A DNA stretch of 11,778 nt from Candidatus Altarchaeum sp. (GTDB lineage: Archaea > Altiarchaeota > Altiarchaeia > Altiarchaeales > Altiarchaeaceae): positions 1-11,778 of the forward strand of contig JAGWDQ010000030.1 in the NCBI GenBank assembly GCA_018260615.1, written 5' to 3'. The stretch's first letter is position 1. The number at the start of each line of letters is the position of its first letter. The notes below the pieces were generated by a model, which was not told the DNA's origin, made no database searches, and worked only from the letters and a program-made list of their open reading frames with translations. Below are positions 1-11,778 of the stretch, piece by piece. A program made the translations under genes and the position numbers.

Positions 1-7
1 AATTAAT

Positions 8-346
8 TTATATGGAAAATTTCCCTTTTTGGAATCTGATTGCCACAAGACCTATAATCGCTAATCTTTCATCTATTTTAGTTACTGAGTTGTATTTCAA
101 CTGATCAGGGAGATATAAGGAATCCATCGATCCGAGATACTTCGCAATATCAAGAGGCGAAACTGGATATTTTGAGTTTTTATAATTCTCAACAACATAT
201 TTCCATGAGGAATTGACTGCGATATCAAAAACAATATTGTTTTTTTGATTTCCTTCCGATGATACTAAGTTGTTCAGTTCAGTGGTCCCTTCAGACGATA
301 TTTTAACAGATTTTGTTGCCATAAATTCTACTTTCTTTTTTGCCAT
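8..346 (-). CDS. Hypothetical protein, about 112 aa
   Basis: Open frame 8..394; the ATG at 346 (MAKKKVEF) looks a better start than the TTG at 394. No family recognised. Divergent from the plus-strand array. Confidence 0.55.
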   Translation of the reverse strand: MAKKKVEFMATKSVKISSEGTTELNNLVSSEGNQKNNIVFDIAVNSSWKYVVENYKNSKYPVSPLDIAKYLGSMDSLYLPDQLKYNSVTKIDERLAIIGLVAIRFQKGKFSI

Positions 347-499: not shown

Positions 500-1141
500 T
501 TGATAAAAAAATATTGGCATCTATTGAAGTTTGCGGGTAACGAAATTTTGGAATGGACTGATTTTAGTAATATGGGGATTCGTGGACCTTATGCATACAC
601 ATTAGATATTCAAGCGGTAAAAAAAGCAATCCAAGACAAAGATATGGATTTCTTTGAAGAAAAATTCAAAAAAAGTTATGAAAAACAATATCAAATAATT
701 ATAGAATCTGCAAAAACAACACTTATGAGAGACGGTTTGGATCAGGCAATTGCCAACGCAATCGTAGGCGAAGCAAAATCAAGAAACTACAAATCAACCG
801 GCTTCATAGACGAAGAACAATTCATTTGCATGGCAATTGAATGGTACTCAAAAGATATTGGAATTGACTGGAACAAACTTGCAGATAAATGTTTAGGAGA
901 GAGTGATGTGAAAATATTTAATCCAAAAAACACAGAAAAAATTTTAAAAATTTTGGGGCAAATGAAAGAGAAACCAAAAGAAACAGCGAATTACATAAAT
1001 AAATTGATAGAAGAAAACTTTGGAGGGGAATTCAAAGTTGACGAGAAATGGATGACTCAAATTTTAAATCAAGTAATTGATGTTGTAAAAGAAGCAATAA
1101 ATAAAAATTTAGAATTAGTAATTTGTCAAACATATGAATGA
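500..1141 (+). CDS. Hypothetical protein (start may be the ATG at 572, MGIRGPY)
   Basis: 213-codon ORF with Lys/Glu/Ile-rich composition like its neighbours. No confident family. Stop TGA 1139-1141 overlaps the start of repeat A. Confidence 0.7.
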   Translation: MIKKYWHLLKFAGNEILEWTDFSNMGIRGPYAYTLDIQAVKKAIQDKDMDFFEEKFKKSYEKQYQIIIESAKTTLMRDGLDQAIANAIVGEAKSRNYKSTGFIDEEQFICMAIEWYSKDIGIDWNKLADKCLGESDVKIFNPKNTEKILKILGQMKEKPKETANYINKLIEENFGGEFKVDEKWMTQILNQVIDVVKEAINKNLELVICQTYE

Positions 1142-1286
1142 AAAATTTATAAAAGATGCAAAGGAAATTTTAATTAAGAAAGGGGTTAAGGTTTTGCAGT
1201 TTGTGACGCATTATCCAAAATTTGAGTGCGTTAATTTAAATTTATGCTTGGAAAAGAAAGAAACTCAAAAAATATTTAAAAGTTGA
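1134..1286 (+). pseudogene. 50-codon mini-ORF, remnant of the radical SAM C-terminus
   Basis: Translates MNEKFIKDAKEILIKKGVKVLQFVTHYPKFECVNLNLCLEKKETQKIFKS*; compare YEKFIKEVKEILIKKGVKVLQLVTHFPKFECVNLNQN* at the end of ORF 8473-8940. Confidence 0.7.
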
Positions 1287-1324
1287 AAAGTAATTTGTAT
1301 TTATAACATAAAATATAATATGGC
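1138..1324 (+). repeat. Repeat A: radical SAM gene 3' end plus 'long tail', running to the ATGGC of the next gene
   Basis: 1138-1241 matches 8828-8931 at 98/104 nt. 1160-1276 is identical to 6623-6739 (117 nt). The terminal ataacataaaatataatATGGC is shared with repeat C. Confidence 0.95.
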
Positions 1325-1919
1325 TAAAAATTTAAAACCACCAGAGGACAAAATTTTTTGGAAAAATTTGTGGAATAAAATGAAAAAAAGAAATGTGAAG
1401 GACTTTAGAATTTCGCAAAAGGATATAAATGGATTGTCTGACGGAGATATGATTGCAGCAGTAATACTGCCAATCTGGCCATCCGGTATTGAAGAAGACG
1501 AGTTAGATCGTATTTCACAGGGAACGCCAGGGCAGAGAGCATTGTACTGCATTACTCTTTTTATGAGGGAAGTTAATAATGGAGGAATTGAACAATTTTT
1601 AAGGAATTCCAGCGGGATGTACATAAACGAGGTTTTGAAGGGGTTGGACCTGGTTGGCGCGAGAAAAGATCTTGAAATAGTAAAAGAGGCATTAAAAATA
1701 TTTCCTGATGGCGAAGTTCCAATTGATTGGGATGAAAGAGACGAGATGCTTGATGAACAACTTGAAAAACTTGGAATTGCAGAGATTGAATATTTTGATA
1801 AATTTAATGAAAAATTGTTTGGAGAGGAAAGATTTTATCCTTTATTCATTGAATATATAAAAAAACACGAGGATGAATTCTTTTATGATGCGGAACAAAA
1901 AAAGCGAGGTGAAAAATGA
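1320..1919 (+). CDS. DUF4375 / DMP19-like domain protein
   Basis: Motif GQRALY...EVNNGGIEQFLRNSSG.Y..EVLKGL.LVGA is characteristic of the DUF4375/DMP19 family (recognised by eye). Confidence 0.75.
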   Translation: MAKNLKPPEDKIFWKNLWNKMKKRNVKDFRISQKDINGLSDGDMIAAVILPIWPSGIEEDELDRISQGTPGQRALYCITLFMREVNNGGIEQFLRNSSGMYINEVLKGLDLVGARKDLEIVKEALKIFPDGEVPIDWDERDEMLDEQLEKLGIAEIEYFDKFNEKLFGEERFYPLFIEYIKKHEDEFFYDAEQKKRGEK

Positions 1920-2674
1920 AAGCTGAAAAGCATAATGATTTGGGAGTTTTGTACTACGAATCAGGCAATTTTGAGGGGGTGGAAAAGGAATTCAGAGAGG
2001 CAATACGATTAGCTCCAAATTATACCGAAGCACATTGTAATTTAGGAATTTTACTGCAAAATTTAAAACAATACGATGAAGCAGAGAAAGAATACAGAGA
2101 AGCAATAAAGCTCAATCCAAATCTTGCAGAAGCACATTATAATTTAGGAAATTTATTGACAAATTTAAAACGCTATGACGAAGCAGAGAAAGAATACAGA
2201 GAAGCAATAAATCTCAATCCTGAAGTTTCTGATGTGTGGAGTGGCAGAGGTAATGTACTTGAAGAACTTGGAAGGTATAAAGAAGCATTTGAATGTTATA
2301 ACAAAGCCACAGATATAAATCCGGACAATGCCAGCGCATGGAATAACAAGGGCGTATTGCTTGAAACATTTGGAAGAAGGTATAATGAGGGAATTAAATG
2401 TTTTGATGAAGCAATAAGAGCAGATCCGAATAATGTTATGGCGTGGTGTAATAAAGGTGAGGCACTTAAACAACTTAAAAGATATGAGGAAGCGATAGAA
2501 TGTATCAACAAAGCTCTGAATATAGATCCAAATCTCGCCGAAGCATGGTATGTTAAAGGTCTCATATTTAAAGCTCTTAAAGGGCTCGATGAAGCAATGC
2601 AATATTTTGACGAGGCAATAAAACTAAATCCAAAATTCGGCAAAGGACGGCTTCATCCGAAATTTAACAGATGA
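1916..2674 (+). CDS. Tetratricopeptide repeat (TPR) protein
   Basis: About seven 34-aa repeats such as AEAHYNLGNLL...YDEAEKEYREAIKLNP and ASAWNNKG...CFDEAI..DP. ATGA overlap with the upstream gene. Confidence 0.93.
   Translation: MKAEKHNDLGVLYYESGNFEGVEKEFREAIRLAPNYTEAHCNLGILLQNLKQYDEAEKEYREAIKLNPNLAEAHYNLGNLLTNLKRYDEAEKEYREAINLNPEVSDVWSGRGNVLEELGRYKEAFECYNKATDINPDNASAWNNKGVLLETFGRRYNEGIKCFDEAIRADPNNVMAWCNKGEALKQLKRYEEAIECINKALNIDPNLAEAWYVKGLIFKALKGLDEAMQYFDEAIKLNPKFGKGRLHPKFNR
2027..2220 (+). repeat. 102-bp-period tandem duplication of one TPR unit
   Basis: gaagcacattgtaatttagga...gaagcagagaaagaatacagagaagcaataaagctcaatcc (2027-2118) recurs at 2129-2220 with high nucleotide identity. Confidence 0.85.
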
Positions 2675-4566
2675 GAAAAATGAAATTTAATAAAAATTTT
2701 ACAATAACAGGAAGCGGGCTTGTTTTGAAAAAGCCGGTTTTTTATAACAACAAATGCGGGATACGATTCGGTCTCGGCGAAAAAGAGAACTCGGACATCA
2801 ACAGATTCATTGAATGTTTTTCAAACACAAGGAGATTATTTGAGTTGATCTTCCAAAACAGCAATGAAACTTATATTTTGCTTGAAATATTTGACCGTAA
2901 AAAAACAAAATCAGCTAATCCAAAAGGACTCATAGAACTGAAGAAAATGGGTTTTGTCCCGGACAAAAATTTTAAAAGAAGGACGATGTATCATAAAGAT
3001 GAAGATTCCTATACATACCGCTACCTTTTCAAAGAGCAAAAAGAAAGCCCGAACATTGATGTTTTGTTCCGGGCAATACTTGGAAGCGACCTCGGAATAA
3101 AGCCAACCGCAGGGGTTGATGCATATTTCATTGACGAAGCGGGAGAATTGCTTTTTCATCCGTATGATGACAGGGGATGTGATATTGTTTCGTCTGATGA
3201 AAAAAGGATAATACCCATATACGAAAAATTAAAAAAGGATAAGCAGGATATTCAAAGTATAGGTTACAGGAATAAAGAATATGTCCACGGCTGCGAACTG
3301 TGTAAATATCTTGACGTTGATACAGCAAGTGAGATAGAGTATTACTGCCCCCTGATTGATGGGATGATTTGCGAGACGCACTGCGCAGAGATGCCAACTC
3401 ACGCGGGAAACAAAAACTATTGTAAAGAAACGACAAAAGCTGTAATGGATATGCTTGCTGGAAAGAACAAACCAATAACGATCGAGGAAATTGAAGAAAA
3501 ATGCAGATGCTGGAAAGTTGAAAAAACAGAAAAGATGAAGAAAAACAATAAACAAGAACTACTGGAAAATATTAAAAACCCCAAAAAAGTAGAATTCAAA
3601 ATACCTAATGGCTGGGTTAATTCCAATTTCCTGCATGAGATTAATATGTCAGATGTTGTTGAATATATTGACAGAGGATGTGATAAATTGGATTTGACAA
3701 CATATTTTGGTGAAGATGTTCTTTTTATTGGACTGCCCGAGGGAAGCCATAAGGCGGGGATATCAGTAGATTGGCTTCCTCAATATGATCTAAAGGGTCG
3801 TTTTGTTTGTCAGATTGTTGTAGAATCTACCCTTCAGGAGCACGCACAAGCTATCTGGGATTATCCGCTTGAACAAGAGGAGTTCAAAACATGGCAGGAA
3901 GTCCGCGATTGGGTCAATGTGTGGATTGAGAAATTAAAAGATATGCCTGAAACTACAGAGTATGGCGAGATAATGACTTATCTGGATTATAAGTTTAAAC
4001 GAGATTTAAACAGTTCCATATTTCCAATAGAACATGATGTGCGTATCAGATTTGGATTGGGGGGCGATTATAAAAATTGCCGCGATGATAGGTTAAACCA
4101 AGCGTATGAAAGGTCAGTCACATTATTTGAAGATGTTTTTACAAACAGCGAAGATGAATTGTGGTTATTCATGAATGAATGGGACACAGACAAACATAAT
4201 GATTATTTTTATAAGCAAGTTGATAAACAGAATAATGATTTCATTTCGCGAACCGTTTCTCAGGGAGGGTATAGCGCACGTCTTCACACTCAAAAGTTTA
4301 TAAAATTAAAATTAAGTCAGGTGAACTACAAAAATATTTTAAGGGGAATAGCCAATCTGGAGCAGGGAAGAGAACCAAAGGTTGCACAGAGAATCTGGTT
4401 TATAAATTTCAAAAAAGATATGGTGTTTTATATGTGCAATGATGAAGAATGCTTAGTTTATTCGGATGATCCTGAAAAAATAAGGCACATCTATGAAAAA
4501 AGGAAGGAGTGGATTGTGGATGATTGGAAAAAGGAAATTGATGAAATATTCGGAGAAAATAATTAG
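2671..4566 (+). CDS. 631-aa multi-module protein with DUF3885-like domains at both ends
   Basis: N-terminal IRFGLG...LFHPYDDRGCDIVS...IYEK and C-terminal IRFGLG...VFYMCNDEECLVYS...IYEKRKEWI fit the DUF3885 pattern. A Cys-rich segment and a third unrelated segment lie between them. Confidence 0.7.
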   Translation: MRKMKFNKNFTITGSGLVLKKPVFYNNKCGIRFGLGEKENSDINRFIECFSNTRRLFELIFQNSNETYILLEIFDRKKTKSANPKGLIELKKMGFVPDKNFKRRTMYHKDEDSYTYRYLFKEQKESPNIDVLFRAILGSDLGIKPTAGVDAYFIDEAGELLFHPYDDRGCDIVSSDEKRIIPIYEKLKKDKQDIQSIGYRNKEYVHGCELCKYLDVDTASEIEYYCPLIDGMICETHCAEMPTHAGNKNYCKETTKAVMDMLAGKNKPITIEEIEEKCRCWKVEKTEKMKKNNKQELLENIKNPKKVEFKIPNGWVNSNFLHEINMSDVVEYIDRGCDKLDLTTYFGEDVLFIGLPEGSHKAGISVDWLPQYDLKGRFVCQIVVESTLQEHAQAIWDYPLEQEEFKTWQEVRDWVNVWIEKLKDMPETTEYGEIMTYLDYKFKRDLNSSIFPIEHDVRIRFGLGGDYKNCRDDRLNQAYERSVTLFEDVFTNSEDELWLFMNEWDTDKHNDYFYKQVDKQNNDFISRTVSQGGYSARLHTQKFIKLKLSQVNYKNILRGIANLEQGREPKVAQRIWFINFKKDMVFYMCNDEECLVYSDDPEKIRHIYEKRKEWIVDDWKKEIDEIFGENN

Positions 4567-4578
4567 TGAACGAACCAA

Positions 4579-5388
4579 ATGAAAAAAATGAACGAAAAAC
4601 AACTAAAATATAGGGTCATTGAAAAGTTAACGGGATTCTTGAATTATGATAAACCGTCAAAACAAAACATGATCGGATCGCCAGAAGTGAATAAAGTAAT
4701 CAGGATGATATTTTCCCCCGTGTTAAGAGAAAATGGATTTTCTAGTTTCCTGACCAGAAATAACTGGGGTTGGCACGAACATTCAATATGGGTGTTGAAT
4801 ATTAACTCGGTTGGAAATTATTTTTCTCAAGTAACCGGATGGCCTCCGATGTCTATCGTCGTTAATCTTGGGGTCTATTATGATTTTATTCCTGAAGAAT
4901 TCCCGGAGCACATAGAAAATCGCATTAAGAAAAATAAAGTCGGCAGGTTAATTCCAAAAGAATATGAATGTCATGCGCGTGCAAGCTTATTATGTACTTT
5001 GGATCAATCAAATTTAAAAAAGAATTTGAGTAATCCCGCCGAGACGAAAAGAAGGGATATATGGTGGGTAAAACCAGACGGCAGTAATGTTGAAGAGGTT
5101 GTAACCAACATCAAGGATTCATTTTTGAACGGTAATGTAACTTCGTTCGGTCCTTATAATGAAGATATTTCTTTGAGCGGAGTTGAATGGTTTAGGAAGT
5201 TGAGCGATTTAGAGTATGTCTTTAACGCATTTGAAGACAGACAGGATTACTATAAAGCCGCATTTTTTGCAAAACATTTTGGCTGCAAGGATAAACTTAA
5301 AGAATACGGCGAGAATTTTCTGGAAGAAGCAAAAAAGATTGGGGGGCATGATTTAAAGATCATACAAAAAGAATTAAACGAGAAGTAG
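4579..5388 (+). CDS. DUF4304-like domain protein
   Basis: SPVLRENGF...IWVLNINS...IVVNLGVYY resembles the DUF4304 N-terminal pattern (recognised by eye). Confidence 0.55.
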   Translation: MKKMNEKQLKYRVIEKLTGFLNYDKPSKQNMIGSPEVNKVIRMIFSPVLRENGFSSFLTRNNWGWHEHSIWVLNINSVGNYFSQVTGWPPMSIVVNLGVYYDFIPEEFPEHIENRIKKNKVGRLIPKEYECHARASLLCTLDQSNLKKNLSNPAETKRRDIWWVKPDGSNVEEVVTNIKDSFLNGNVTSFGPYNEDISLSGVEWFRKLSDLEYVFNAFEDRQDYYKAAFFAKHFGCKDKLKEYGENFLEEAKKIGGHDLKIIQKELNEK

Positions 5389-5392
5389 AAAA

Positions 5393-5947
5393 ATGATAAT
5401 CACAAAATTTGACGATATCCCAGAGGTTCAAAAAGCAAAGATAACCCTTTTTGAAAATCCCGCAGGAGGGATTGAAACACATGCTGAGTTATCTCCCGAC
5501 GGAAGGGAAGGTAAAGAATGTAGTACTACCGGAAAACTCTTTTGCATAGACAAAGAAGAGAATTTCGCGGAGTTTGAGGACTACGGGTCGGCAGGGTACG
5601 ATTTTCACAAAACAAATTTAAAATTTCCTGTTGATGCACCAGCCATTAACCTGAAATTTGAACGATACCTTACCGACGAACACGGCGATGAGATACCTTC
5701 CGGGGATACAATCCATCTTGACAAAACCAATAAAATACTTATGTACGGCTTTGTCGGAAGTGCGGTTCTCGATTACATCACACAACCACTGAAGTACTAT
5801 CTTATTGCTAAGAATGTTGCGGTTAGGATAGATGCCAGAGGAATGCTGATTGAGATAATAATGCAATTAGAAGATGAACATATTCGCGAGATTGAAAGAA
5901 TTATAGGGGATGATATCGTGGGATGGAAAGATGATCCGACAGACTAA
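5393..5947 (+). CDS. Acidic hypothetical protein, 184 aa
   Basis: Intact ORF 4 nt after the upstream stop. No family recognised. Confidence 0.65.
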   Translation: MIITKFDDIPEVQKAKITLFENPAGGIETHAELSPDGREGKECSTTGKLFCIDKEENFAEFEDYGSAGYDFHKTNLKFPVDAPAINLKFERYLTDEHGDEIPSGDTIHLDKTNKILMYGFVGSAVLDYITQPLKYYLIAKNVAVRIDARGMLIEIIMQLEDEHIREIERIIGDDIVGWKDDPTD

Positions 5948-6002: not shown

Positions 6003-6130
6003 AAAAACAATTATGAACATAACCGAAACCCTCTATGTAAAATCAGGAGTTAATGTCTTGCAGTTGGTAATTCATTTTCCGAAATTTGAATGTATAAATT
6101 TAAATCAAAACTAATAAAAATATATTATGG
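6003..6130 (+). repeat. Repeat B: short YdeI-5' / radical SAM-3' chimera
   Basis: 6003-6050 is identical to 10974-11021 (48 nt). From 6051 it is a diverged copy of the radical SAM 3' end (8878-8940), ending tcaaaactaa...attATGG. Confidence 0.93.
6013..6114 (+). pseudogene. 33-aa in-frame chimeric mini-ORF (not in the ORF track)
   Basis: MNITETLYVKSGV|NVLQLVIHFPKFECINLNQN*: YdeI-family N-terminus fused to the radical SAM C-terminus. Confidence 0.8.
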
Positions 6131-6531
6131 AAACAAAAACAAAAAATTTAATCGGAATCGGGATTTTGGCAATAATCTCAATAGTTACGGTCGTTTTTGT
6201 ACTTTACCATGGGTTTTTTAAAAATGGGGTATTGCCTGCTATGGCATTATTTGTTTTGGTATTATTGTTGCTTATTCTTTTCCCCTTAATACCGTTATTA
6301 AAAAAGCGGCAAACGCCCATATCAAAAGAGAAACAAGCAAAAAGTCAATTGGCTGTTGGTATAGCATTTATTGTTTTTGCGATAGTATGGTTGATATCAT
6401 TATTTATATCAGCTGGCGGATCTCATATCTTCTACAGTCTTATGGCGATTTGTTATGGTATGCTTGGAATATTTTATATTTTTCAGTATCTAAAATATAA
6501 AAAACAAAAGAAAGACGAAAACACAAAATAA
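6127..6531 (+). CDS. Small integral membrane protein, about 4 TM helices
   Basis: Four hydrophobic stretches and a basic tail. Shares ME.K..IGIGI and SKE.QAK with ORF 9639-10040. Confidence 0.8.
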   Translation: METKTKNLIGIGILAIISIVTVVFVLYHGFFKNGVLPAMALFVLVLLLLILFPLIPLLKKRQTPISKEKQAKSQLAVGIAFIVFAIVWLISLFISAGGSHIFYSLMAICYGMLGIFYIFQYLKYKKQKKDENTK

Positions 6532-6536
6532 AAAGG

Positions 6537-6799
6537 TAAACAATTATGGACATAACCGAAACCCTCTATGTAAAATCAGGAGTGGAATGGCGAAAGTGGC
6601 TGGAGAAAAATCACAAAAACAAAAAGGAAATTTTAATTAAGAAAGGGGTTAAGGTTTTGCAGTTTGTGACGCATTATCCAAAATTTGAGTGCGTTAATTT
6701 AAATTTATGCTTGGAAAAGAAAGAAACTCAAAAAATATTAAAGATTGAAAAGTAATTTATAGTTATACAACACATAAATAACATAAAATATAATATGGC
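6537..6799 (+). repeat. Repeat C: long YdeI-5' / radical SAM-3' chimera with 'long tail'
   Basis: 6537-6704 equals 9454-9621 at 167/168 nt. 6538-6633 matches 10976-11071 at 93/96. 6623-6739 is identical to 1160-1276. Confidence 0.97.
6546..6755 (+). pseudogene. 69-aa in-frame chimeric mini-ORF
   Basis: MDITETLYVKSGVEWRKWLEKNHKNKKEI (YdeI-family start) then LIKKGVKVLQFVTHYPKFECVNLN (radical SAM end) then LCLEKKETQKILKIEK*. Confidence 0.8.
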
Positions 6800-7532
6800 A
6801 AATACAAAAATATCCGGCAAAAAAATAGAAAGACAATATGCGTTAATAGAAGAATACTATGAAAAATATCTGAAAAAATACGGCGTTAAAATGCCCGGAT
6901 TACATAATAAAGATGGCAATTTTACAATGAACGGATTAGTCCTTGTTTATCTGTCTTTTGGATATCCAAAAACAAAAATTGTATCTAAGACGGAATTAAC
7001 AAATTTTATAAGAAATTATTATCCCGAAGTTAATGATGTTCAGCAAGCAAGACATTTAGGTGCTCAGGATGGCTGGTGGATTGTAGCAGGTGGAAGAGAT
7101 AATATAGTGCTAAAAGTGAAAAGAGGATATTATCAGCTTTATACATTAGAGCAACCTTACCCAGGCTTTAAAAAGGGGCATAGAATCACAGATGCGGGAG
7201 ATTGGGAAGAATTAAAAGCACGATATGGTTACAGATGTGCAACCTGTGGCTCTCGTGAAGGAGAACCTAATTTTCATTGGCCGGGAACAAAAACAAAACT
7301 TCAGAAAGCACACATGGATTCGAATAAACCATTGATACCCGGCAATATAATTCCACAATGTCAAAAATGCAACAGGGCAGATAGAAACAGATGGATATAT
7401 GATGAAAAAGGAAGAGTTATAAAATTAGCAAATGCTTCTTTTGTTAGAAATTTTGATAAAGATGTAAGAATAAAGATATACAGAATACTTTATGAAGAAT
7501 TTAAGGGAAAAAACCCTAACACGATAAAATGA
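6795..7532 (+). CDS. HNH (beta-beta-alpha-Me) endonuclease, probable Type II restriction enzyme
   Basis: CATC...AHMD...N...CQKCN zinc-binding HNH pattern. Coupled by an ATGA overlap to a DNA methyltransferase. Confidence 0.8.
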   Translation: MANTKISGKKIERQYALIEEYYEKYLKKYGVKMPGLHNKDGNFTMNGLVLVYLSFGYPKTKIVSKTELTNFIRNYYPEVNDVQQARHLGAQDGWWIVAGGRDNIVLKVKRGYYQLYTLEQPYPGFKKGHRITDAGDWEELKARYGYRCATCGSREGEPNFHWPGTKTKLQKAHMDSNKPLIPGNIIPQCQKCNRADRNRWIYDEKGRVIKLANASFVRNFDKDVRIKIYRILYEEFKGKNPNTIK

Positions 7533-8464
7533 AAAATAATGACTTTATTAATAAAATAATTACGGGTGATGCTTTAGAAGTGTTAGCAAAAATTGAAGAT
7601 GATTCAATAGATGTTGTTCTAACGGATCCTCCTTATTTTTTGGATAAACTTGATAATAACTGGAAATATGCGGAAGTTCCTGACAAAAAATATTGTATTG
7701 TAGTGAAATCATTACCTCCCGGAATGAAGTTTGACAGGCAACAAGGTATAAATCTTTATAACTGGTTTTTAAATGTGTCTAAGGAATTATATCGGGTCTT
7801 AAAAAAAGGCGGATTTTTCTTCTCTTTCTCAAGTCCCAGATTGTACCATAGGATGGCAAGTGCTGTTGATGATGCCGGCTTTATGGTTAGGGATTGTTTC
7901 GTATGGATTTACACTCAAAACCAGCCAAAAGCAATGGGTCTGAATCATTTTATAGATAAGTTGGATATTGGCAAATTTGCAAAAGAAGAATTAAAGAAAA
8001 AACTTTCCGGCTGGAAAACACCGCAAATTAAGTCATGTTTTGAGCCGATTATTGTGGCTCAAAAGCCCCCGGACAAAACATTCCTGGAAAATATAATGAA
8101 CAACGAAGTTGGACTTTTTAATACAAATATAAAAGTTGGTGACAATATGTATCCTTCAAACATTCTGACAATTGACCATATCAGCGAAATTATGGATAAA
8201 AGTTTTTTAGTGGGAAAACCAACAAAAAAAGAAAGGGGAAATTATAATTTTCATATGACTGTAAAACCCGTAGAGATATGTGAACATCTTATTAAACTTT
8301 CCGCTTTTTCAAAAGATGCTGTAATTTTAGATCCGTTTATTGGAAGCGGAACAACTGCTATTGCTGCAAAAGGTCTGGATAAAAATTTCATCGGAATTGA
8401 AAGCAACCCCGAATATGTAAAAATTGCTTTAAAACGATTAGATGACATACAAGGTAAATTATAA
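7529..8464 (+). CDS. Beta-class amino (N6-adenine or N4-cytosine) DNA methyltransferase
   Basis: Motif IV DPPY near the N-terminus, H.TVKP, and motif I DPFIGSGTT near the C-terminus give the beta-class order. DPPY favours m6A. Confidence 0.92.
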   Translation: MKNNDFINKIITGDALEVLAKIEDDSIDVVLTDPPYFLDKLDNNWKYAEVPDKKYCIVVKSLPPGMKFDRQQGINLYNWFLNVSKELYRVLKKGGFFFSFSSPRLYHRMASAVDDAGFMVRDCFVWIYTQNQPKAMGLNHFIDKLDIGKFAKEELKKKLSGWKTPQIKSCFEPIIVAQKPPDKTFLENIMNNEVGLFNTNIKVGDNMYPSNILTIDHISEIMDKSFLVGKPTKKERGNYNFHMTVKPVEICEHLIKLSAFSKDAVILDPFIGSGTTAIAAKGLDKNFIGIESNPEYVKIALKRLDDIQGKL

Positions 8465-8940
8465 AATCGGATTTGGTATTGAGGGATATTGCTCTTTTTA
8501 AAAAATTTGAAAATTTAAGAGTTGGATTGACAATAAACGGATTTAGTGGAAAATCAAAAGAATTATTTGAACCGAACTCGCCGGGCAACGAGGCGCGACT
8601 GCACGCTTTAAAAATTTTGAATGAAAACGGAATTAAGACATACGGATTCATAAGTCCGGTTATTCCAGGTCTGATTGATTTGGAAAATTTAATTGAAAAT
8701 TCAAGAAATTTCGTAGATTATTACATTGTTGAACTGCTGAATTTAAATGCTGCGGGATATGAATTTAAAAAATTGTTGATGGGAAATTATCCGGAAAGTT
8801 ATGAAATTATGACAAACAAAGAGCGGTATGAAAAATTTATAAAAGAGGTAAAGGAAATTTTAATTAAGAAAGGGGTTAAGGTTTTGCAGTTAGTTACTCA
8901 TTTTCCAAAATTTGAGTGCGTTAATTTAAATCAAAACTAA
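8464..8940 (+). pseudogene. 5'-truncated SplB-like (COG1533-type) radical SAM gene, C-terminal half only
   Basis: KSDLVLRD...VGLTI...FEPNSP...RLHAL..L.ENGIKTYGFISPVIPG is the family C-terminal pattern. The CxxxCxxC-containing N-terminal half is absent; there is an in-frame stop at 8455-8457 and homology begins at the MTase stop. Confidence 0.85.
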
Positions 8941-8952
8941 AAAATAATATGG
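8828..8952 (+). repeat. Repeat D: radical SAM 3' end in its longest native context, 'short tail'
   Basis: Source-like copy of the 3' half of repeats A, B, C and E. 8850-8946 matches 9540-9636 with 5 mismatches. Confidence 0.95.
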
Positions 8953-8965
8953 AGGATAAAAAAAT

Positions 8966-9436
8966 ATGAATCTAAATATTATAGGTGTAAAGAAGGGCCA
9001 TGTAATGTCCTCGGCAATTATGGCGATTACGGGTCTTATCATCGGATTATTAACAATGCCCGCTGAGGCAACAGTATTGTTAAAAACATTGGATGGGATG
9101 GCTTTTCCTGTTTTAGAAGTTATGAATGTTTTTCTAATAGATTTTCCAATGTCTATACTTGCGGCCGTCCTCTTTACACTTATGAATAAAAATGCGAAAA
9201 TTAAGGACGGTATAATATGTGGATTCTTATTTCTCATAATCATAATTTTTCTCATATTTTCTGTAGGAGTATTCACAGGAATGGCAGAACCTATAGCAGA
9301 TACTGCAATAAAATCAAGCCATCTTTTTGGTTTTGCATTTCCGATATTCTGTTTGATATTTTTACTGTTTGACTTTGGAGTTTGTGTATTGGGGGGAATC
9401 TTAGGCATTACCATTATGAGAGAGATGAAAAAATGA
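8966..9436 (+). CDS. Integral membrane protein, about 4 TM helices
   Basis: 156 aa with four hydrophobic segments; ggagg at 8951-8955 is a possible ribosome-binding site. No family recognised. Confidence 0.8.
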   Translation: MNLNIIGVKKGHVMSSAIMAITGLIIGLLTMPAEATVLLKTLDGMAFPVLEVMNVFLIDFPMSILAAVLFTLMNKNAKIKDGIICGFLFLIIIIFLIFSVGVFTGMAEPIADTAIKSSHLFGFAFPIFCLIFLLFDFGVCVLGGILGITIMREMKK

Positions 9437-9453
9437 TATAAGATTTAAAATTT

Positions 9454-9642
9454 TAAACAATTATGGACATAACCGAAACCCTCTATGTAAAATCAGGAGT
9501 GGAATGGCGAAAGTGGCTGGAGAAAAATCACAAAAACAAAAAGGAAATTTTAATTAAGAAAGGGGTTAAGGTTTTGCAGTTTGTGACGCATTATCCGAAA
9601 TTTGAGTGCGTTAATTTAAATCAAAACTAAAAAATATTATGG
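9454..9642 (+). repeat. Repeat E: long YdeI-5' / radical SAM-3' chimera with 'short tail'
   Basis: 167/168 nt identical to repeat C up to gttaatttaaat, then caaaactaaaaaata as in repeat D. Confidence 0.97.
9463..9630 (+). pseudogene. 55-aa in-frame chimeric mini-ORF (not in the ORF track)
   Basis: MDITETLYVKSGVEWRKWLEKNHKNKKEILIKKGVKVLQFVTHYPKFECVNLNQN*. Confidence 0.8.
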
Positions 9643-10040
9643 AAAATAAAAAAATCGGAATCGGAATAATCGTTGTATTTGTATTTAGTGTTTTTGCACT
9701 ATGTGTTTTTTTTAATAGTTGGGTAGCATCACATTCTAAAGCATTGCTTGTTGTGGCTCTGCTTGTACTTTCCCTTCTTCTTTTATTATTGTTGTTTAAA
9801 GGAAAGCGAAAAACTTTATCAAAAGAAGAACAGGCAAAAAGACTCAAATTTAGTGGTATTTTCTGGGTTGGCTTTGGCATAATATACCTAACATTGCCCT
9901 TTGTTTTCGGAGAAGAAATTCGTTTATTCAATTATGTAATGGCGGCGGCATCTATTAGTATGGGGGTCGCTCATTTGTGGCAGAGTCACAAATTAAAAAA
10001 CGAAAATAATAAAACAAGTGAGGAGGTGAAACAAAAATGA
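9639..10040 (+). CDS. Small integral membrane protein, about 4 TM helices; distant homologue of 6127-6531
   Basis: MENKKIGIGI...KRKTLSKEEQAK versus METKTKNLIGIGI...KRQTPISKEKQAK; similar length (133 vs 134 aa) and hydropathy. Confidence 0.8.
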   Translation: MENKKIGIGIIVVFVFSVFALCVFFNSWVASHSKALLVVALLVLSLLLLLLLFKGKRKTLSKEEQAKRLKFSGIFWVGFGIIYLTLPFVFGEEIRLFNYVMAAASISMGVAHLWQSHKLKNENNKTSEEVKQK

Positions 10041-10987
10041 CAGACCTAAACTCACTCGGACTTTTAATCCCGGTTTTTGCGGGAATTTTAGTATCATTTA
10101 CCCCGTGCGTAGCCGTGCTTTTCCCGATAACTTTTTATAGGTTTATGTCTGATGCGGGAACGGATTACAAAGCATATTTCTTATATGCCCTCGGCTTCCT
10201 TTTCACATTCACAATCGCGGGTTTCTTATTTCAGCAACTCTTTGAATCAAGCATACAAAACGGAATAAAACTTACAATAGCCATTGCGCTTATTATGCTC
10301 GGCACGCTGCAATTTTTCAATCGCGTAAATCCATTGAATCTGCCCGTAATAAAAAACACATTTGTTTTCGGTGCGATTTTTGCCGTAGCGATCGGAATAA
10401 ACCCATGTGCCGTGCCGTTTACGGGTCAGGTATTTGCATTGTCATCGGGCGGCGAAATTTTTATAAATCTATTCCTATTTGGCATCGGAATTTTAATCGC
10501 GCCGACACTGCTTTTAATTTTCGGAAACGAATTAATCTCGCACAGCAGAAAAATAACCGAAAAAATGCACTACATTGATAAACCGATCAGCGTCTTACTT
10601 GCGGCGTCGGGAATTTATATGGGGCTTCACATTTTAGAACTCACACAACTTGATTTAATATTATCCTCAATTTTAATTTTAATTTTATTGCTTGTTATCC
10701 TGAAAATATTTTTTATAGGAAATTCAATTAAAAATTTGTTAACGCTCCCGCGAATCCTGCTCGTCGCATCCGTTTTTGTAATGTGGTTCGTAATTACTTA
10801 TCACTGCTACGGGATGGTGTCGCCGGGAGGGGATGAGGCGGTGTGTTCAATGACATGTTTCGTGTGTCAGCGATGCTTGGTGTTGTTTGGCGTGTCGGTT
10901 ATTTTAGGGGTTGCGGGGTCGCTGTTGCTGGGGTGGTATGAAAATAAAAATAATAAAAATAATAATTCAAAGCAAAAACAATTATGA
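10037..10987 (+). CDS. ccdA: CcdA/DsbD-like transmembrane thiol-disulfide protein with a C-terminal extension
   Basis: Two Pro-Cys catalytic motifs, SFTPCV..LFP and INPCAVP, in a multi-TM protein. Assignment is family-level. Confidence 0.75.
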   Translation: MTDLNSLGLLIPVFAGILVSFTPCVAVLFPITFYRFMSDAGTDYKAYFLYALGFLFTFTIAGFLFQQLFESSIQNGIKLTIAIALIMLGTLQFFNRVNPLNLPVIKNTFVFGAIFAVAIGINPCAVPFTGQVFALSSGGEIFINLFLFGIGILIAPTLLLIFGNELISHSRKITEKMHYIDKPISVLLAASGIYMGLHILELTQLDLILSSILILILLLVILKIFFIGNSIKNLLTLPRILLVASVFVMWFVITYHCYGMVSPGGDEAVCSMTCFVCQRCLVLFGVSVILGVAGSLLLGWYENKNNKNNNSKQKQL

Positions 10988-11071
10988 ACATAACCGAAAC
11001 CCTCTATGTAAAATCAGGAGTGGAATGGCGAAAGTGGCTGGAGAAAAACCACAAAAACAAAAAAGAAATTT
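10974..11071 (+). repeat. Repeat F: 5' end of the intact YdeI-family gene
   Basis: Source-like copy of the 5' half of repeats B, C and E. Confidence 0.95.
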
Positions 11072-11550
11072 GGCTGCTATTTTATAAAAAGCACACTGGC
11101 AAACCCAGAATCTCCGATGAGGATGCGCTTGAAGAAGCATTATGTTACGGCTGGATAGACGGTATTCAGAAACGGATTGACGATGAGAAATTTACCCGAA
11201 GATTCACTCCGAGAAAACCAGCAAGCAAACTGTCGGAAATGAATAAGGAATACATTCGCAAACTCGTCAAAGAAGGCAAAATGACTGCTTTCGGATTCAA
11301 TGCGGTTTCAAAATTTTTTGACAAATCAAAAGACCAGGATGATAAACTAACTATTGCCCCCGATATACTTAAATTGCTGAAAGCAGATGAGCATGCATGG
11401 GAAAATTTCCAAAATTTTTCGGAAAGTTACAAAAGAGTGCGGATTGGCTATATTGAAAATCGCAGGGGTCGTGATGAGATGTTTCAAAAGTCCCTGCTGC
11501 ATTTTATAAAGATGACTGCAAAAAACAAGAAATTCGGAAGAATACAATAA
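10984..11550 (+). CDS. YdeI/OmpD-associated (OmdA, bacteriocin-protection) family protein
   Basis: WRKWLEKNH....IWL.FYKK...ALEEALCYGWIDG...RFTPRK..S..S..N plus a C-terminal A..NF..FS.SYKR..IGYI segment are typical of this family. Confidence 0.92.
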   Translation: MNITETLYVKSGVEWRKWLEKNHKNKKEIWLLFYKKHTGKPRISDEDALEEALCYGWIDGIQKRIDDEKFTRRFTPRKPASKLSEMNKEYIRKLVKEGKMTAFGFNAVSKFFDKSKDQDDKLTIAPDILKLLKADEHAWENFQNFSESYKRVRIGYIENRRGRDEMFQKSLLHFIKMTAKNKKFGRIQ

Positions 11551-11778
11551 GCAAAAATTTACGAAAAATTATAATCAAAAAAGAAAAAATATGCAGGTAT
11601 TTTTAAGTATTTTTAATTATTAATGGAAAAATTTTTCATGTAAAATTTAAAATAATCTTATGACAAACAATAAACAAATCACTATTTTTGAAGGTCAGAA
11701 AATTCGCCGGCGTTGACCTTTATCCCATTAGCACGAAAAAAAAATAAAAAAATGAGGGTCACCCCTATTTGTTTGTCC

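What the first reader, a model, noticed from the sequence alone, without database searches (positions are those of the whole stretch)
6048..6114. Repeat copies differ mostly at synonymous positions, so they likely came from different functional alleles
Codon alignment of B against D over the last 22 codons gives 10 substitutions: 8 at third positions and 7 synonymous (gtc/gtt, ttg/tta, gta/gtt, ccg/cca, gaa/gag, tgt/tgc, and the third base of ata/gtt). D versus C/E shows the same bias (gtt/gtg, act/acg, cca/ccg). Decay of a non-coding duplicate would not favour third positions. The fragments therefore diverged while part of working radical SAM genes, which implies import from other strains or species rather than duplication in place. 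The alternative is selection on the mini-peptides themselves.
Basis: partly seen in the sequence, partly recalled or inferred. Interest (0 to 1): 0.7.

Follow-up and report, generated by a model that had tools for sequence, protein, structure and literature searches.

The report
Gene-end remnants from several archaeal alleles
The short repeated pieces between the cargo genes of this groundwater archaeon (Altiarchaeum) are leftover ends of a radical SAM gene, and they differ mainly at silent codon positions because they come from at least three working versions of that gene in co-occurring lineages, so they record DNA exchange without any dedicated mobile-element enzyme.

Summary
Copy B (6049-6111) and copy D differ at 10 bases in 21 codons; 8 are third positions (P about 0.002) and 7 substitutions are silent.

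- The organism's own intact radical SAM gene (P0133, the continuation of contig C9) differs from every fragment by 8-9 of 57 core bases.
- Fragments A, C and E match an intact gene of a divergent lineage (P0143) at 56-57 of 57 bases.
- The 155-codon fragment D is a mosaic. Its first 195 bases are of the resident type. The next 135 are of the P0143 type, with silent-site divergence from the resident gene near saturation but pN/pS 0.2.
- The D lineage carries 16 silent to 13 replacement changes, like the intact lineages.

Caveats:
- B's full haplotype was not found. It shares its rare codons with the resident gene, so import is unproven for B itself.
- A=C (117/117) and C~E (167/168) show copying or conversion inside the array.
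- Cores and cargo are largely uncoupled.

The likely mechanism is homologous recombination in the gene ends plus microhomology joins. The scan noted the same insertion style on another contig of this genome.

The parts
6049..6114 (+). Copy B: last 21 codons plus stop of a radical SAM gene (VNVLQLVIHFPKFECINLNQN*). This is the stretch of the finding.
   Evidence: It is 8/57 core differences from the nearest intact alleles, P0133 and the P0001 type.
6013..6048 (+). First 12 codons of ydeI, fused in frame to B. The junction SG|V lies at a GGAGT microhomology.
   Evidence: 6003-6050 is identical (48/48) to the start of the intact ydeI at 10974-11021. This junction was not found in any other assembly.
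1138..1286 (+). Copy A: radical SAM 3' end with the long tail (..NLNLCLEKKETQKIFKS*). It is joined at TATGAA to the stop codon of an unrelated ORF.
   Evidence: It is identical to C over 117 nt. Its core is 1 silent difference from intact P0143. The same junction occurs in L028.
6546..6755 (+). Chimera C: ydeI codons 1-28 fused in frame (KKEI|LIKK, microhomology AAGGAAATTT) to a radical SAM 3' end with the long tail.
   Evidence: From 6624 on it is collinear with the intact gene plus R-M genes of L015.
6795..8464 (+). Cargo: a 245-aa putative endonuclease (no family match in Pfam, NCBIfam or PADLOC; assigned only from its pairing with the methyltransferase) and a type II N6/N4 DNA methyltransferase.
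   Evidence: The two genes show only 6 differences from L015 (3 + 3), while the flanking radical SAM pieces are much more diverged.
8465..8940 (+). Copy D: a 155-codon 3' part of a radical SAM gene that starts at the methyltransferase stop codon. It is a mosaic of the resident-type allele (first 195 nt) and a P0143-type allele (next 135 nt).
9463..9630 (+). Chimera E: same junction as C, with the short tail (NQN*).
   Evidence: 167/168 identical to C. Its core is identical to intact P0143. The same chimera occurs in at least four other assemblies.
10984..11550 (+). Intact ydeI/OmdA-family gene, the right-hand anchor of the array.
   Evidence: PF13376 hit at E 5.8e-10. It is 97% identical to P0011.
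1320..5947 (+). Cargo block 1: DMP19-like, TPR, DUF3885 (631 aa), DUF4304 and an unknown ORF.
6127..6531 (+). Cargo after B: a 134-aa membrane protein.
   Evidence: A 90% identical cassette in L028 and L029 follows a different radical SAM remnant.
8966..10987 (+). Cargo after D (a 156-aa membrane protein) and after E (133-aa and 316-aa membrane proteins).
   Evidence: Window 8942-9656 is 95.7% identical to L026.

Best explanation
**What the stretch is.** It is the last 21 codons of a radical SAM gene (SplB/Rv2578c-like), left behind in frame after the first 12 codons of ydeI. It is one of five such gene-end remnants in a cassette array. The array lies at a variable spot between thiI-radical SAM and ydeI in an Altiarchaeum genome.

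**Why the copies differ at silent positions.** The differences already existed as standing variation between working radical SAM genes of co-occurring lineages. They accumulated under purifying selection before the pieces were cut off. This part is shown.
- A, C and E carry the 3' end of a P0143-like allele.
- D is the displaced 3' part of a formerly intact mosaic gene.
- B is nearest to the resident and P0001-type alleles, with extra private changes.

**How the pieces got there.** This part is inferred. DNA from relatives carrying 'radical SAM end - cargo - ydeI start' recombines by ordinary homologous crossover in one gene end. The other side is joined at a 5-11 nt microhomology, as in homology-facilitated illegitimate recombination or insertion with long target duplication. 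That leaves a partial copy of the anchor gene. Four such joins are visible:
- TATGAA at copy A;
- GGAGT at copy B;
- AAGGAAATTT at copies C and E;
- the methyltransferase stop codon at copy D.

Later crossovers and gene conversion inside the 60-170 nt arms then shuffled cores, tails and cargo, and copied the C/E chimera. After capture the remnants drift. Relatives show radical replacements and one internal deletion.
For: - **Counts.** B vs D has 8 of 10 differences at third positions, P about 0.002.
- **Resident gene.** L038 continues contig C9 at 99.97% over 3410 nt and gives the organism's intact 268-aa gene, P0133.
- **Donor-type gene.** P0143 is an intact 272-aa gene whose 5' half is 82% identical to C9.
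- **Core distances over 57 nt**: E-P0143 is 0, A/C-P0143 is 1, A/C-P0133 is 9, D-P0133 is 8, B-P0133 is 8.
- **D is a mosaic.** Against P0133 it differs at 6/195, 36/135 and 12/129 bases in three successive segments. Against P0143 it differs at 46/195, 7/135 and 10/129. In the middle block pS is 0.73 against P0133 with pN/pS 0.2.
- **Selection signal.** D against intact alleles gives dN/dS 0.14-0.22; intact against intact gives 0.25. The lineage-specific changes are D 16 silent:13 replacement, P0001 type 7:4 and P0002 type 15:16, against a neutral silent fraction of 0.20.
- **Recombination tracts.** 21 of 22 private changes of L017's fragment lie in 88 nt.
- **Cargo versus flanks.** The R-M cargo is 99.6% identical to L015, while the core to its left differs at 6 of 28 nt, all third positions, and the D end to its right is also diverged.
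- **Tree.** The fragments form a clade (100/99) apart from the intact genes of the same contigs.
- **The ydeI halves are allelic too.** L026's chimera carries the L015-type ydeI allele, not that of its own intact ydeI.
- **No recombinase.** There is no recombinase family hit in the window or within 10 kb either side in L015.
- **Spacers.** They fold no better than shuffles, z +0.2 to +1.3.
- **Precedents.** PMC2853133 and PMC5361080.
Against: - B's own haplotype was not found. Its 8 differences from the nearest intact genes are 4 silent and 4 replacement, which cannot separate an unsampled allele from decay.
- The 57-nt tree has no starred branch, and the AU test does not reject a single clade of the five window copies (p 0.27).
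- A=C (117/117) and C~E (167/168) show that some copies arose or were homogenised in place.
- The KKEI|LIKK junction is the same in all assemblies. It arose once, so most array growth did not need new illegitimate joins.
- The data are metagenome contigs. The order of cassettes in C30 is externally confirmed only for ORFx-A, B tail-membrane gene-C, C-R-M-D and membrane gene-E.
- That P0133 and P0143 are active enzymes is inferred from intact frames and low pN/pS only.
Confidence: 0.78

Rival explanations
1. Duplication in place, then divergence. Each remnant is a copy of the resident radical SAM gene's end, made when cargo was inserted (a true target duplication), and the differences arose afterwards.
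For: A and C are identical over 117 nt, and C and E over 167 of 168 nt. The KKEI|LIKK junction has a single origin. B shares the rare ATT codon and the TAATAA stop with the resident gene P0133. D's first 195 nt are of the resident type, 6/195 from P0133.
Against: All five cores differ from the resident gene by 8-9 of 57 bases, yet A, C and E match a foreign intact allele at 56-57 of 57. D's block has pS 0.73 against the resident gene with pN/pS 0.2, where neutral decay predicts about 1. The D lineage has 16 silent to 13 replacement changes against a neutral silent fraction of 0.20. In the cases of Furuta et al. the repeats are nearly identical, for example 417/423.
Confidence: 0.1
2. Selection on the mini-peptides. 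The chimeric ORFs (33, 55 and 69 aa) and the 50-aa ORF at A are functional small proteins, and purifying selection on them keeps changes silent.
For: All fragments keep an open frame and a start codon, and both independent ydeI::radical SAM fusions are in frame. The 55-aa chimera recurs in several assemblies.
Against: The silent variants are the same ones that segregate among intact genes. Two in-frame fusions have a chance probability of about 0.11. Fragment copies in relatives carry radical replacements: C to R, C to V, L to P, F to W and K to E. One has an internal deletion of about 97 nt. Fragment-only variants are 8 silent to 12 replacement, against 5 to 3 among intact genes (my count). 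Lengths, tails and N-terminal fusions all vary.
Confidence: 0.07
3. A site-specific cassette system. The spacers are recombination sites (attC-like or Xer/dif-like) used by a recombinase encoded elsewhere, as in the integron-like arrays noted on other contigs of this genome.
For: The layout is regular: cargo alternates with repeats and all cargo reads on one strand. Earlier notes report Xer-type cassette arrays elsewhere in this genome (unchecked here).
Against: The spacers have no hairpin potential beyond shuffles (z +0.2 to +1.3) and no inverted repeats within them. They are plain coding ends of the two flanking genes, with four different truncation points. No recombinase is encoded in the window or in 20 kb of L015. 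Breakpoints of similarity are scattered within the arms, as expected for homologous exchange.
Confidence: 0.05

Closest known systems
Insertion with long (and variable) target duplication of restriction-modification genes (Nobusato et al. 2000, as cited in Furuta et al. 2010, PMC2853133)
   Same: R-M genes with no transposase or integrase sit between two direct copies of part of the target gene. Here the target part is 469 nt of the radical SAM gene. The upstream copy keeps the gene intact in relatives L015-L017.
   Different: The two copies are 89-90% identical and are different alleles, including a block with near-saturated silent divergence. The published cases are nearly identical, for example 417/423. 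This case is archaeal; no archaeal case passed Furuta's screen. It is also embedded in a multi-cassette array that carries non-R-M cargo as well.
Homology-facilitated illegitimate recombination and the orphan arrays it is thought to build (V. cholerae T6SS immunity arrays, Kirchberger et al. 2017, PMC5361080; Rhs C-terminal displacement, cited there)
   Same: Successive insertions are anchored in a conserved gene part. They displace older modules downstream and leave strings of orphaned 3' pieces. The orphans match alleles of other strains.
   Different: The anchors here are two ordinary housekeeping-type genes, not a toxin gene. Both flanks are used, which produces head-to-tail chimeras of the two flanking genes. 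The organism is an uncultivated archaeon with unknown DNA uptake.
Neisseria minimal mobile elements and 'replacement flexible genomic islands' (PMC3787668; PMC4033161; seen in search lists only)
   Same: Different cargo sits between the same conserved flanking genes in different strains and is exchanged by homologous recombination in the flanks.
   Different: Those loci hold one cassette at a time. Here the cassettes accumulate in tandem, separated by flank-gene chimeras.
Integrons and CALINs (attC cassette arrays)
   Same: An array of promoter-proximal, co-oriented, unrelated cassettes separated by a recurring spacer.
   Different: There are no attC-like hairpins and no integrase. The spacers are coding fragments whose similarity breakpoints vary.

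Membership tests
Insertion with long target duplication (Furuta et al. 2010 criteria) | R and M genes lie inside the insert, and the insert is shorter than 20 kb | tested here: met
   A 245-aa ORF plus an N6_N4 MTase at 6795-8464, 1.67 kb. The 245-aa ORF has no family hit, so its role as the endonuclease is inferred from its position.
Insertion with long target duplication (Furuta et al. 2010 criteria) | Direct repeat of target sequence longer than 30 bp on both sides, with no other mobility gene | tested here: met
   In L015 the intact gene region 10340-10798 and the fragment 12554-13016 flank the R-M genes. No mobility family is listed within 10 kb either side.
Insertion with long target duplication (Furuta et al. 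2010 criteria) | The repeats are duplicates of one target, that is nearly identical to each other and to the empty site | tested here: not met
   Identity is 89-90%, with a block at 68-78%. The two copies are different alleles. No empty site was found.
Homology-facilitated illegitimate recombination | One end is homologous to the recipient and the other is joined at a short (3-12 nt) microhomology | tested here: inconclusive
   Microhomologies are read at three joins: TATGAA, GGAGT and AAGGAAATTT. Similarity breakpoints lie inside the arms. Donor and recipient states before the events are not available.
Homology-facilitated illegitimate recombination | Uptake of foreign linear DNA (natural transformation or an equivalent) | not testable with these tools
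   The organism is uncultivated and no competence data were examined.
Integron / CALIN | attC sites with imperfect inverted repeats that fold as hairpins | tested here: not met
   The spacers fold no better than shuffles on either strand, and no inverted repeats lie within the spacers.
Integron / CALIN | A tyrosine recombinase next to the array (integron) or elsewhere in the genome (CALIN) | tested here: inconclusive
   There is none in the window or in L015. The rest of the genome was not searched by me.
SplB/Rv2578c-like radical SAM proteins (the parent gene of the remnants) | CxxxCxxC cluster and a radical SAM core | tested here: met
   P0133 and P0001 carry CEHNCTYC. PF04055 is on record for P0001 to P0004. 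The best NCBIfam hits are TIGR04470, PA0069 and Rv2578c, all below their cut-offs. Fragment D lacks the cluster.

The most novel reading that the evidence does not exclude
The ydeI-start::radical-SAM-end chimera acts as a portable, recombinase-free linker that turns an ordinary intergenic hot spot into an open-ended, integron-like capture array. Any DNA from a co-occurring lineage that carries 'radical SAM end - cargo - ydeI start' can be added, swapped or lost by the host's homologous recombination alone. The silent polymorphisms in the linkers are then a readable record of the donor lineages. Similar insertions at other genes of this genome suggest it may be a general way in which Altiarchaeum gains genes.
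Probability: 0.4. Interest if true: 0.7.

Novelty: new variant of a known kind. Interest (0 to 1): 0.5.

Why it matters
Gene flow in uncultivated subsurface archaea is mostly inferred from gene content. Here the leftover gene ends carry a direct, base-level record that pieces of working genes from lineages up to about 20% diverged were recombined into one locus. No integrase or transposase lies within the sequence examined (the window and 10 kb either side of the locus in relative L015). The finding gives a concrete archaeal case of cargo capture driven by homology arms, including an R-M system. It shows that 'target duplications' around inserts can really be foreign alleles. It also offers a simple test for separating the two: silent-site bias plus matching to intact alleles.

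Tried and rejected
- **Sequencing runs.** The array order therefore rests on contigs only.
- **One allowed metagenome scan.** It gave only two loci, one of them new (L024, P0002 type), and no B-type allele.
- **Other collections.** The C/E junction was not found in viral contigs. A degenerate pattern for the radical SAM end was not found in the species-representative genomes, where the window's own genome may be masked.
- **DNA search of the class.** All 61 genomes of the class were searched. The only hits outside the window's genome were two weak ones, 76% and 83% identity over short stretches in G002 and G036.
- **Tree on the 57-nt core.** B groups with the P0001-type intact genes at 87/83, not starred. 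The AU test cannot reject one clade of the five window copies (p 0.27). This is too little sequence, so I relied on site tables and on the 459-nt fragment instead.
- **Archaeal TATA box.** I considered the TTTAAAT at the end of the radical SAM gene as a TATA box for the cargo genes. It starts 24 nt before the cargo ATG, which fits poorly with a leaderless start, and the genome is AT-rich (34% GC). Not pursued.
- **Assembly artefact for the chimeras.** Rejected. The microhomologies (5-11 nt) are far below k = 55, and the same KKEI|LIKK chimera occurs in independent JGI, ENA and NCBI assemblies.
- **P0135.** This is a 431-aa 'transposase' listed in the cluster of the 55-aa chimera. It is an unrelated GC-rich protein and was ignored.

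Full report
**1. What is at the coordinates**

The window is the whole 11,778-nt contig C30 of a 2.2-Mb metagenome-assembled genome (87% complete, 148 contigs).
- Relatives of the locus carry TBP, ribosomal protein S8e, eIF2 and family-B DNA polymerase. Named records belong to Altiarchaeales.
- An ORF runs from 6013 to 6114.
  - Its first 12 codons (6013-6048) are identical to the start of the intact ydeI/OmdA gene at 10984 (48/48 nt including the leader).
  - Its last 21 codons plus stop (6049-6114) are the 3' end of a radical SAM gene.
- The same radical SAM end occurs five times:
  - A, 1138-1286;
  - B, 6049-6114;
  - C, 6624-6755;
  - D, 8465-8940, a 155-codon piece that begins at the stop codon of a DNA methyltransferase;
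  - E, 9540-9630.
- B, C and E are preceded in frame by ydeI starts.
- Unrelated cargo lies between the copies.

**2. The observation**

B and D differ at 10 of 63 sense bases.
- Eight differences are at third positions.
- Six codons change silently. Three change the residue. The third base of ATA/GTT is also silent.
- The probability of 8 or more third-position hits is 0.003 (binomial), or 0.0015-0.0019 in simulations that keep the 7:3 transition:transversion ratio. Six or more silent codons has P about 0.01.
- The stated start, 6048, is one base early.

**3. Intact alleles for comparison**

Database searches with fragment D and with chimera E, followed by cluster look-ups, recovered intact genes and further fragments.
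- **The resident gene.** L038 continues contig C9 (thiI, then the radical SAM 5' half) at 99.97% over 3410 nt. It therefore gives the organism's own intact gene, P0133: 268 aa, tail NQN**. Its 3' half is missing from the bin.
- **P0001 type.** 282 aa with a long tail, followed by the same R-M pair as in the window (L015-L017).
- **P0002 type.** 280 aa (L018-L024).
- **P0143.** 272 aa with tail QIKIKI (L039). Its 5' half is only 82% identical to C9, so it belongs to a different lineage. It comes from the same ENA sample as L017 and L028.

**4. Where the fragments' variants come from**

Differences over the 57-nt core shared by all copies:

| Copy | vs intact P0143 | vs resident P0133 | vs P0001 type (L015) |
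|---|---|---|---|
| E | 0 | 8 | 5 |
| A, C | 1 (silent, CCA) | 9 | 6 |
| D | 5 | 8 | 8 |
| B | 11 | 8 | 8 |

B shares GTA, ATT, CCG, GAA, TGT and the TAATAA double stop with P0133, and TTG-GTA with the P0001 type.

The ten B-D differences sort as follows:
- four are polymorphisms that segregate among intact genes (three silent, one I/T);
- two are states seen only in fragments (GTT, CCA; both silent);
- four are private to B (two silent, two replacement).

B's private changes cannot be assigned.

**5. The long fragment gives the power that B lacks**

Over 153 codons:
- D against intact alleles has dN/dS 0.14-0.22. Intact against intact gives 0.25.
- In a three-lineage comparison the D lineage carries 16 silent and 13 replacement changes. 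The P0001-type lineage carries 7 and 4, and the P0002-type lineage 15 and 16. The neutral silent fraction is 0.20.

D is a mosaic:

| Segment of D | Differences vs resident P0133 | Differences vs P0143 |
|---|---|---|
| nt 1-195 | 6/195 | 46/195 |
| nt 196-330 | 36/135 (pS 0.73, pN/pS 0.2) | 7/135 |
| nt 331-459 | 12/129 | 10/129 |

A tract with near-saturated silent divergence and few replacements cannot be decay of a local duplicate. It was shaped in a working gene of a P0143-like lineage.

Two further observations agree with this.
- In a tree of the 459-nt region, the D-type fragments of four assemblies form a clade (100/99) apart from the intact genes on the same contigs. Forcing one contig's fragment and intact gene together is rejected (AU p 4e-75; the group was named after seeing the tree).
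- Private changes among D-type fragments are clustered. In L017, 21 of 22 lie within 88 nt. They are still biased towards silent changes: 16 silent to 17 replacement, P 3e-4 against neutrality. That is the pattern left by recombination tracts.

**6. Cargo and arms are exchanged separately**

- Window 6624-8953 is collinear with L015: the intact gene's end, the R and M genes, and the fragment.
  - The two cargo genes differ at only 6 bases.
  - The core to their left differs at 6 bases within 28 nt, all third positions.
  - The D end to their right carries 14 mismatch or indel columns in about 100 nt.
- The membrane-protein cassette after B recurs at 90% identity in L028 and L029, behind a quite different remnant (FVTHFPEFER).
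- Tails follow cargo (the long tail goes with R-M), but cores do not. The cause is frequent crossover within the arms, not a lack of import.
- The ydeI halves behave the same way. The chimera in L026 carries the L015-type ydeI allele rather than that of its own intact ydeI.

**7. In-place processes also act**

- A and C are identical over 117 nt. C and E are identical at 167 of 168 nt.
- The KKEI|LIKK junction is the same in the window, L026, L028, L029 and several other contigs, so it arose once and was then propagated.
- Remnants decay after capture. Relatives show C to R, C to V, L to P and F to W replacements, and an internal deletion of about 97 nt.
- Fragment-only variants are 8 silent to 12 replacement, against 5 to 3 among intact genes (my count; too few for a test).
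- This decay argues against selection on the mini-peptides.

**8. Mechanism (inferred)**

- No recombinase family is found in the window or within 10 kb either side in L015.
- The spacers are not structured.
- Four distinct joins sit at short microhomologies or at a stop codon. With ydeI alleles that read AAG, the C/E join is a perfect 10-11 nt match.
- The simplest account has three steps:
  1. a homologous crossover in one gene end;
  2. an illegitimate join at the other;
  3. homologous exchange, unequal crossover and conversion between the resulting arms.
- The R-M case matches 'insertion with long target duplication' (PMC2853133), except that the two 'duplicates' are different alleles.
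- The array as a whole resembles the orphan arrays attributed to homology-facilitated illegitimate recombination in Vibrio T6SS and Rhs loci (PMC5361080).
I reached the same comparison independently and tested it only on this locus.

**9. Limits**

- All sequences are metagenome contigs.
- Reads could not be examined.
- The adjacencies A-cargo 1-B, D-membrane gene and E-cargo-ydeI have no external confirmation.
- The 57-nt tree has no power.
- Activity of the intact alleles is inferred, not measured.

**10. Verdict**

- This is a new, archaeal, two-flank, multi-cassette variant of a known kind of event.
- It is of moderate interest as a base-level record of inter-lineage recombination.

Noticed in passing
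window 1-56, 443-563 and 11721-11778: Three short sequences of about 55-120 nt are repeated exactly at the ends of many other contigs of the genome (C16, C17, C64, C71, C82, C98, C104, C117, C127 and others) and inside C70 and C129. They are probably ends of multicopy elements that break the k = 55 assembly. The TTG start at 500 of ORF 500-1141 lies inside one of them, so the real start is probably further downstream, for example the ATG at 572.
   Followed up: partly
G000:C9:14940-15018 and locus L038: The organism's intact radical SAM gene is split by the assembly. Its 5' half ends contig C9 in a 55-nt overlap with window 8489-8543. Its 3' half is absent from the bin and is seen only in the sibling assembly L038. 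After the gene, L038 runs into contig C45 and another dispersed 55-nt repeat.
   Followed up: yes
protein P0142 (120 aa; JGI/ENA contig of 1096 nt): In another strain the first 59 residues of the membrane protein of window 10037-10987 are fused in frame to a ydeI-start::radical-SAM-end chimera. This is a further rearrangement state of the same array.
   Followed up: no
L029:1837-2207 (Altiarchaeales HGW-2, PHDX01000139.1): The D-type fragment after the same R-M genes has lost about 97 nt internally. It is followed by the membrane-protein cassette that follows copy B in the window, then a chimera, then a flavodoxin gene. The same parts appear in another order.
   Followed up: partly
L027:431-1820 (JGI 3300029891): thiI lies on the opposite strand, directly next to a 57-codon P0143-type radical SAM remnant. 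This suggests an inversion or a different arrangement of the anchor genes in one population member.
   Followed up: no
window 1320-5388: Cargo block 1 is a run of DMP19-like, TPR, DUF3885 (631 aa, two DUF3885 stretches) and DUF4304 proteins. From memory, such families are often annotated as immunity-type proteins of polymorphic toxin systems, so the block may be an orphan immunity-like array. None matched a PADLOC model.
   Followed up: partly
L018:3636-6004: In the P0002-type strain the slot directly after the intact radical SAM gene holds a different R-M pair (a 529-aa MTase plus a HinfI-family endonuclease). The position is therefore a recurrent landing place for R-M systems.
   Followed up: no
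P0133 and window 8473-8940: The best NCBIfam match of the radical SAM gene is TIGR04470, 'radical SAM mobile pair protein B' (155 bits, far below the cut-off of 410), ahead of the PA0069 and Rv2578c families. Its function is unknown.
   Followed up: no
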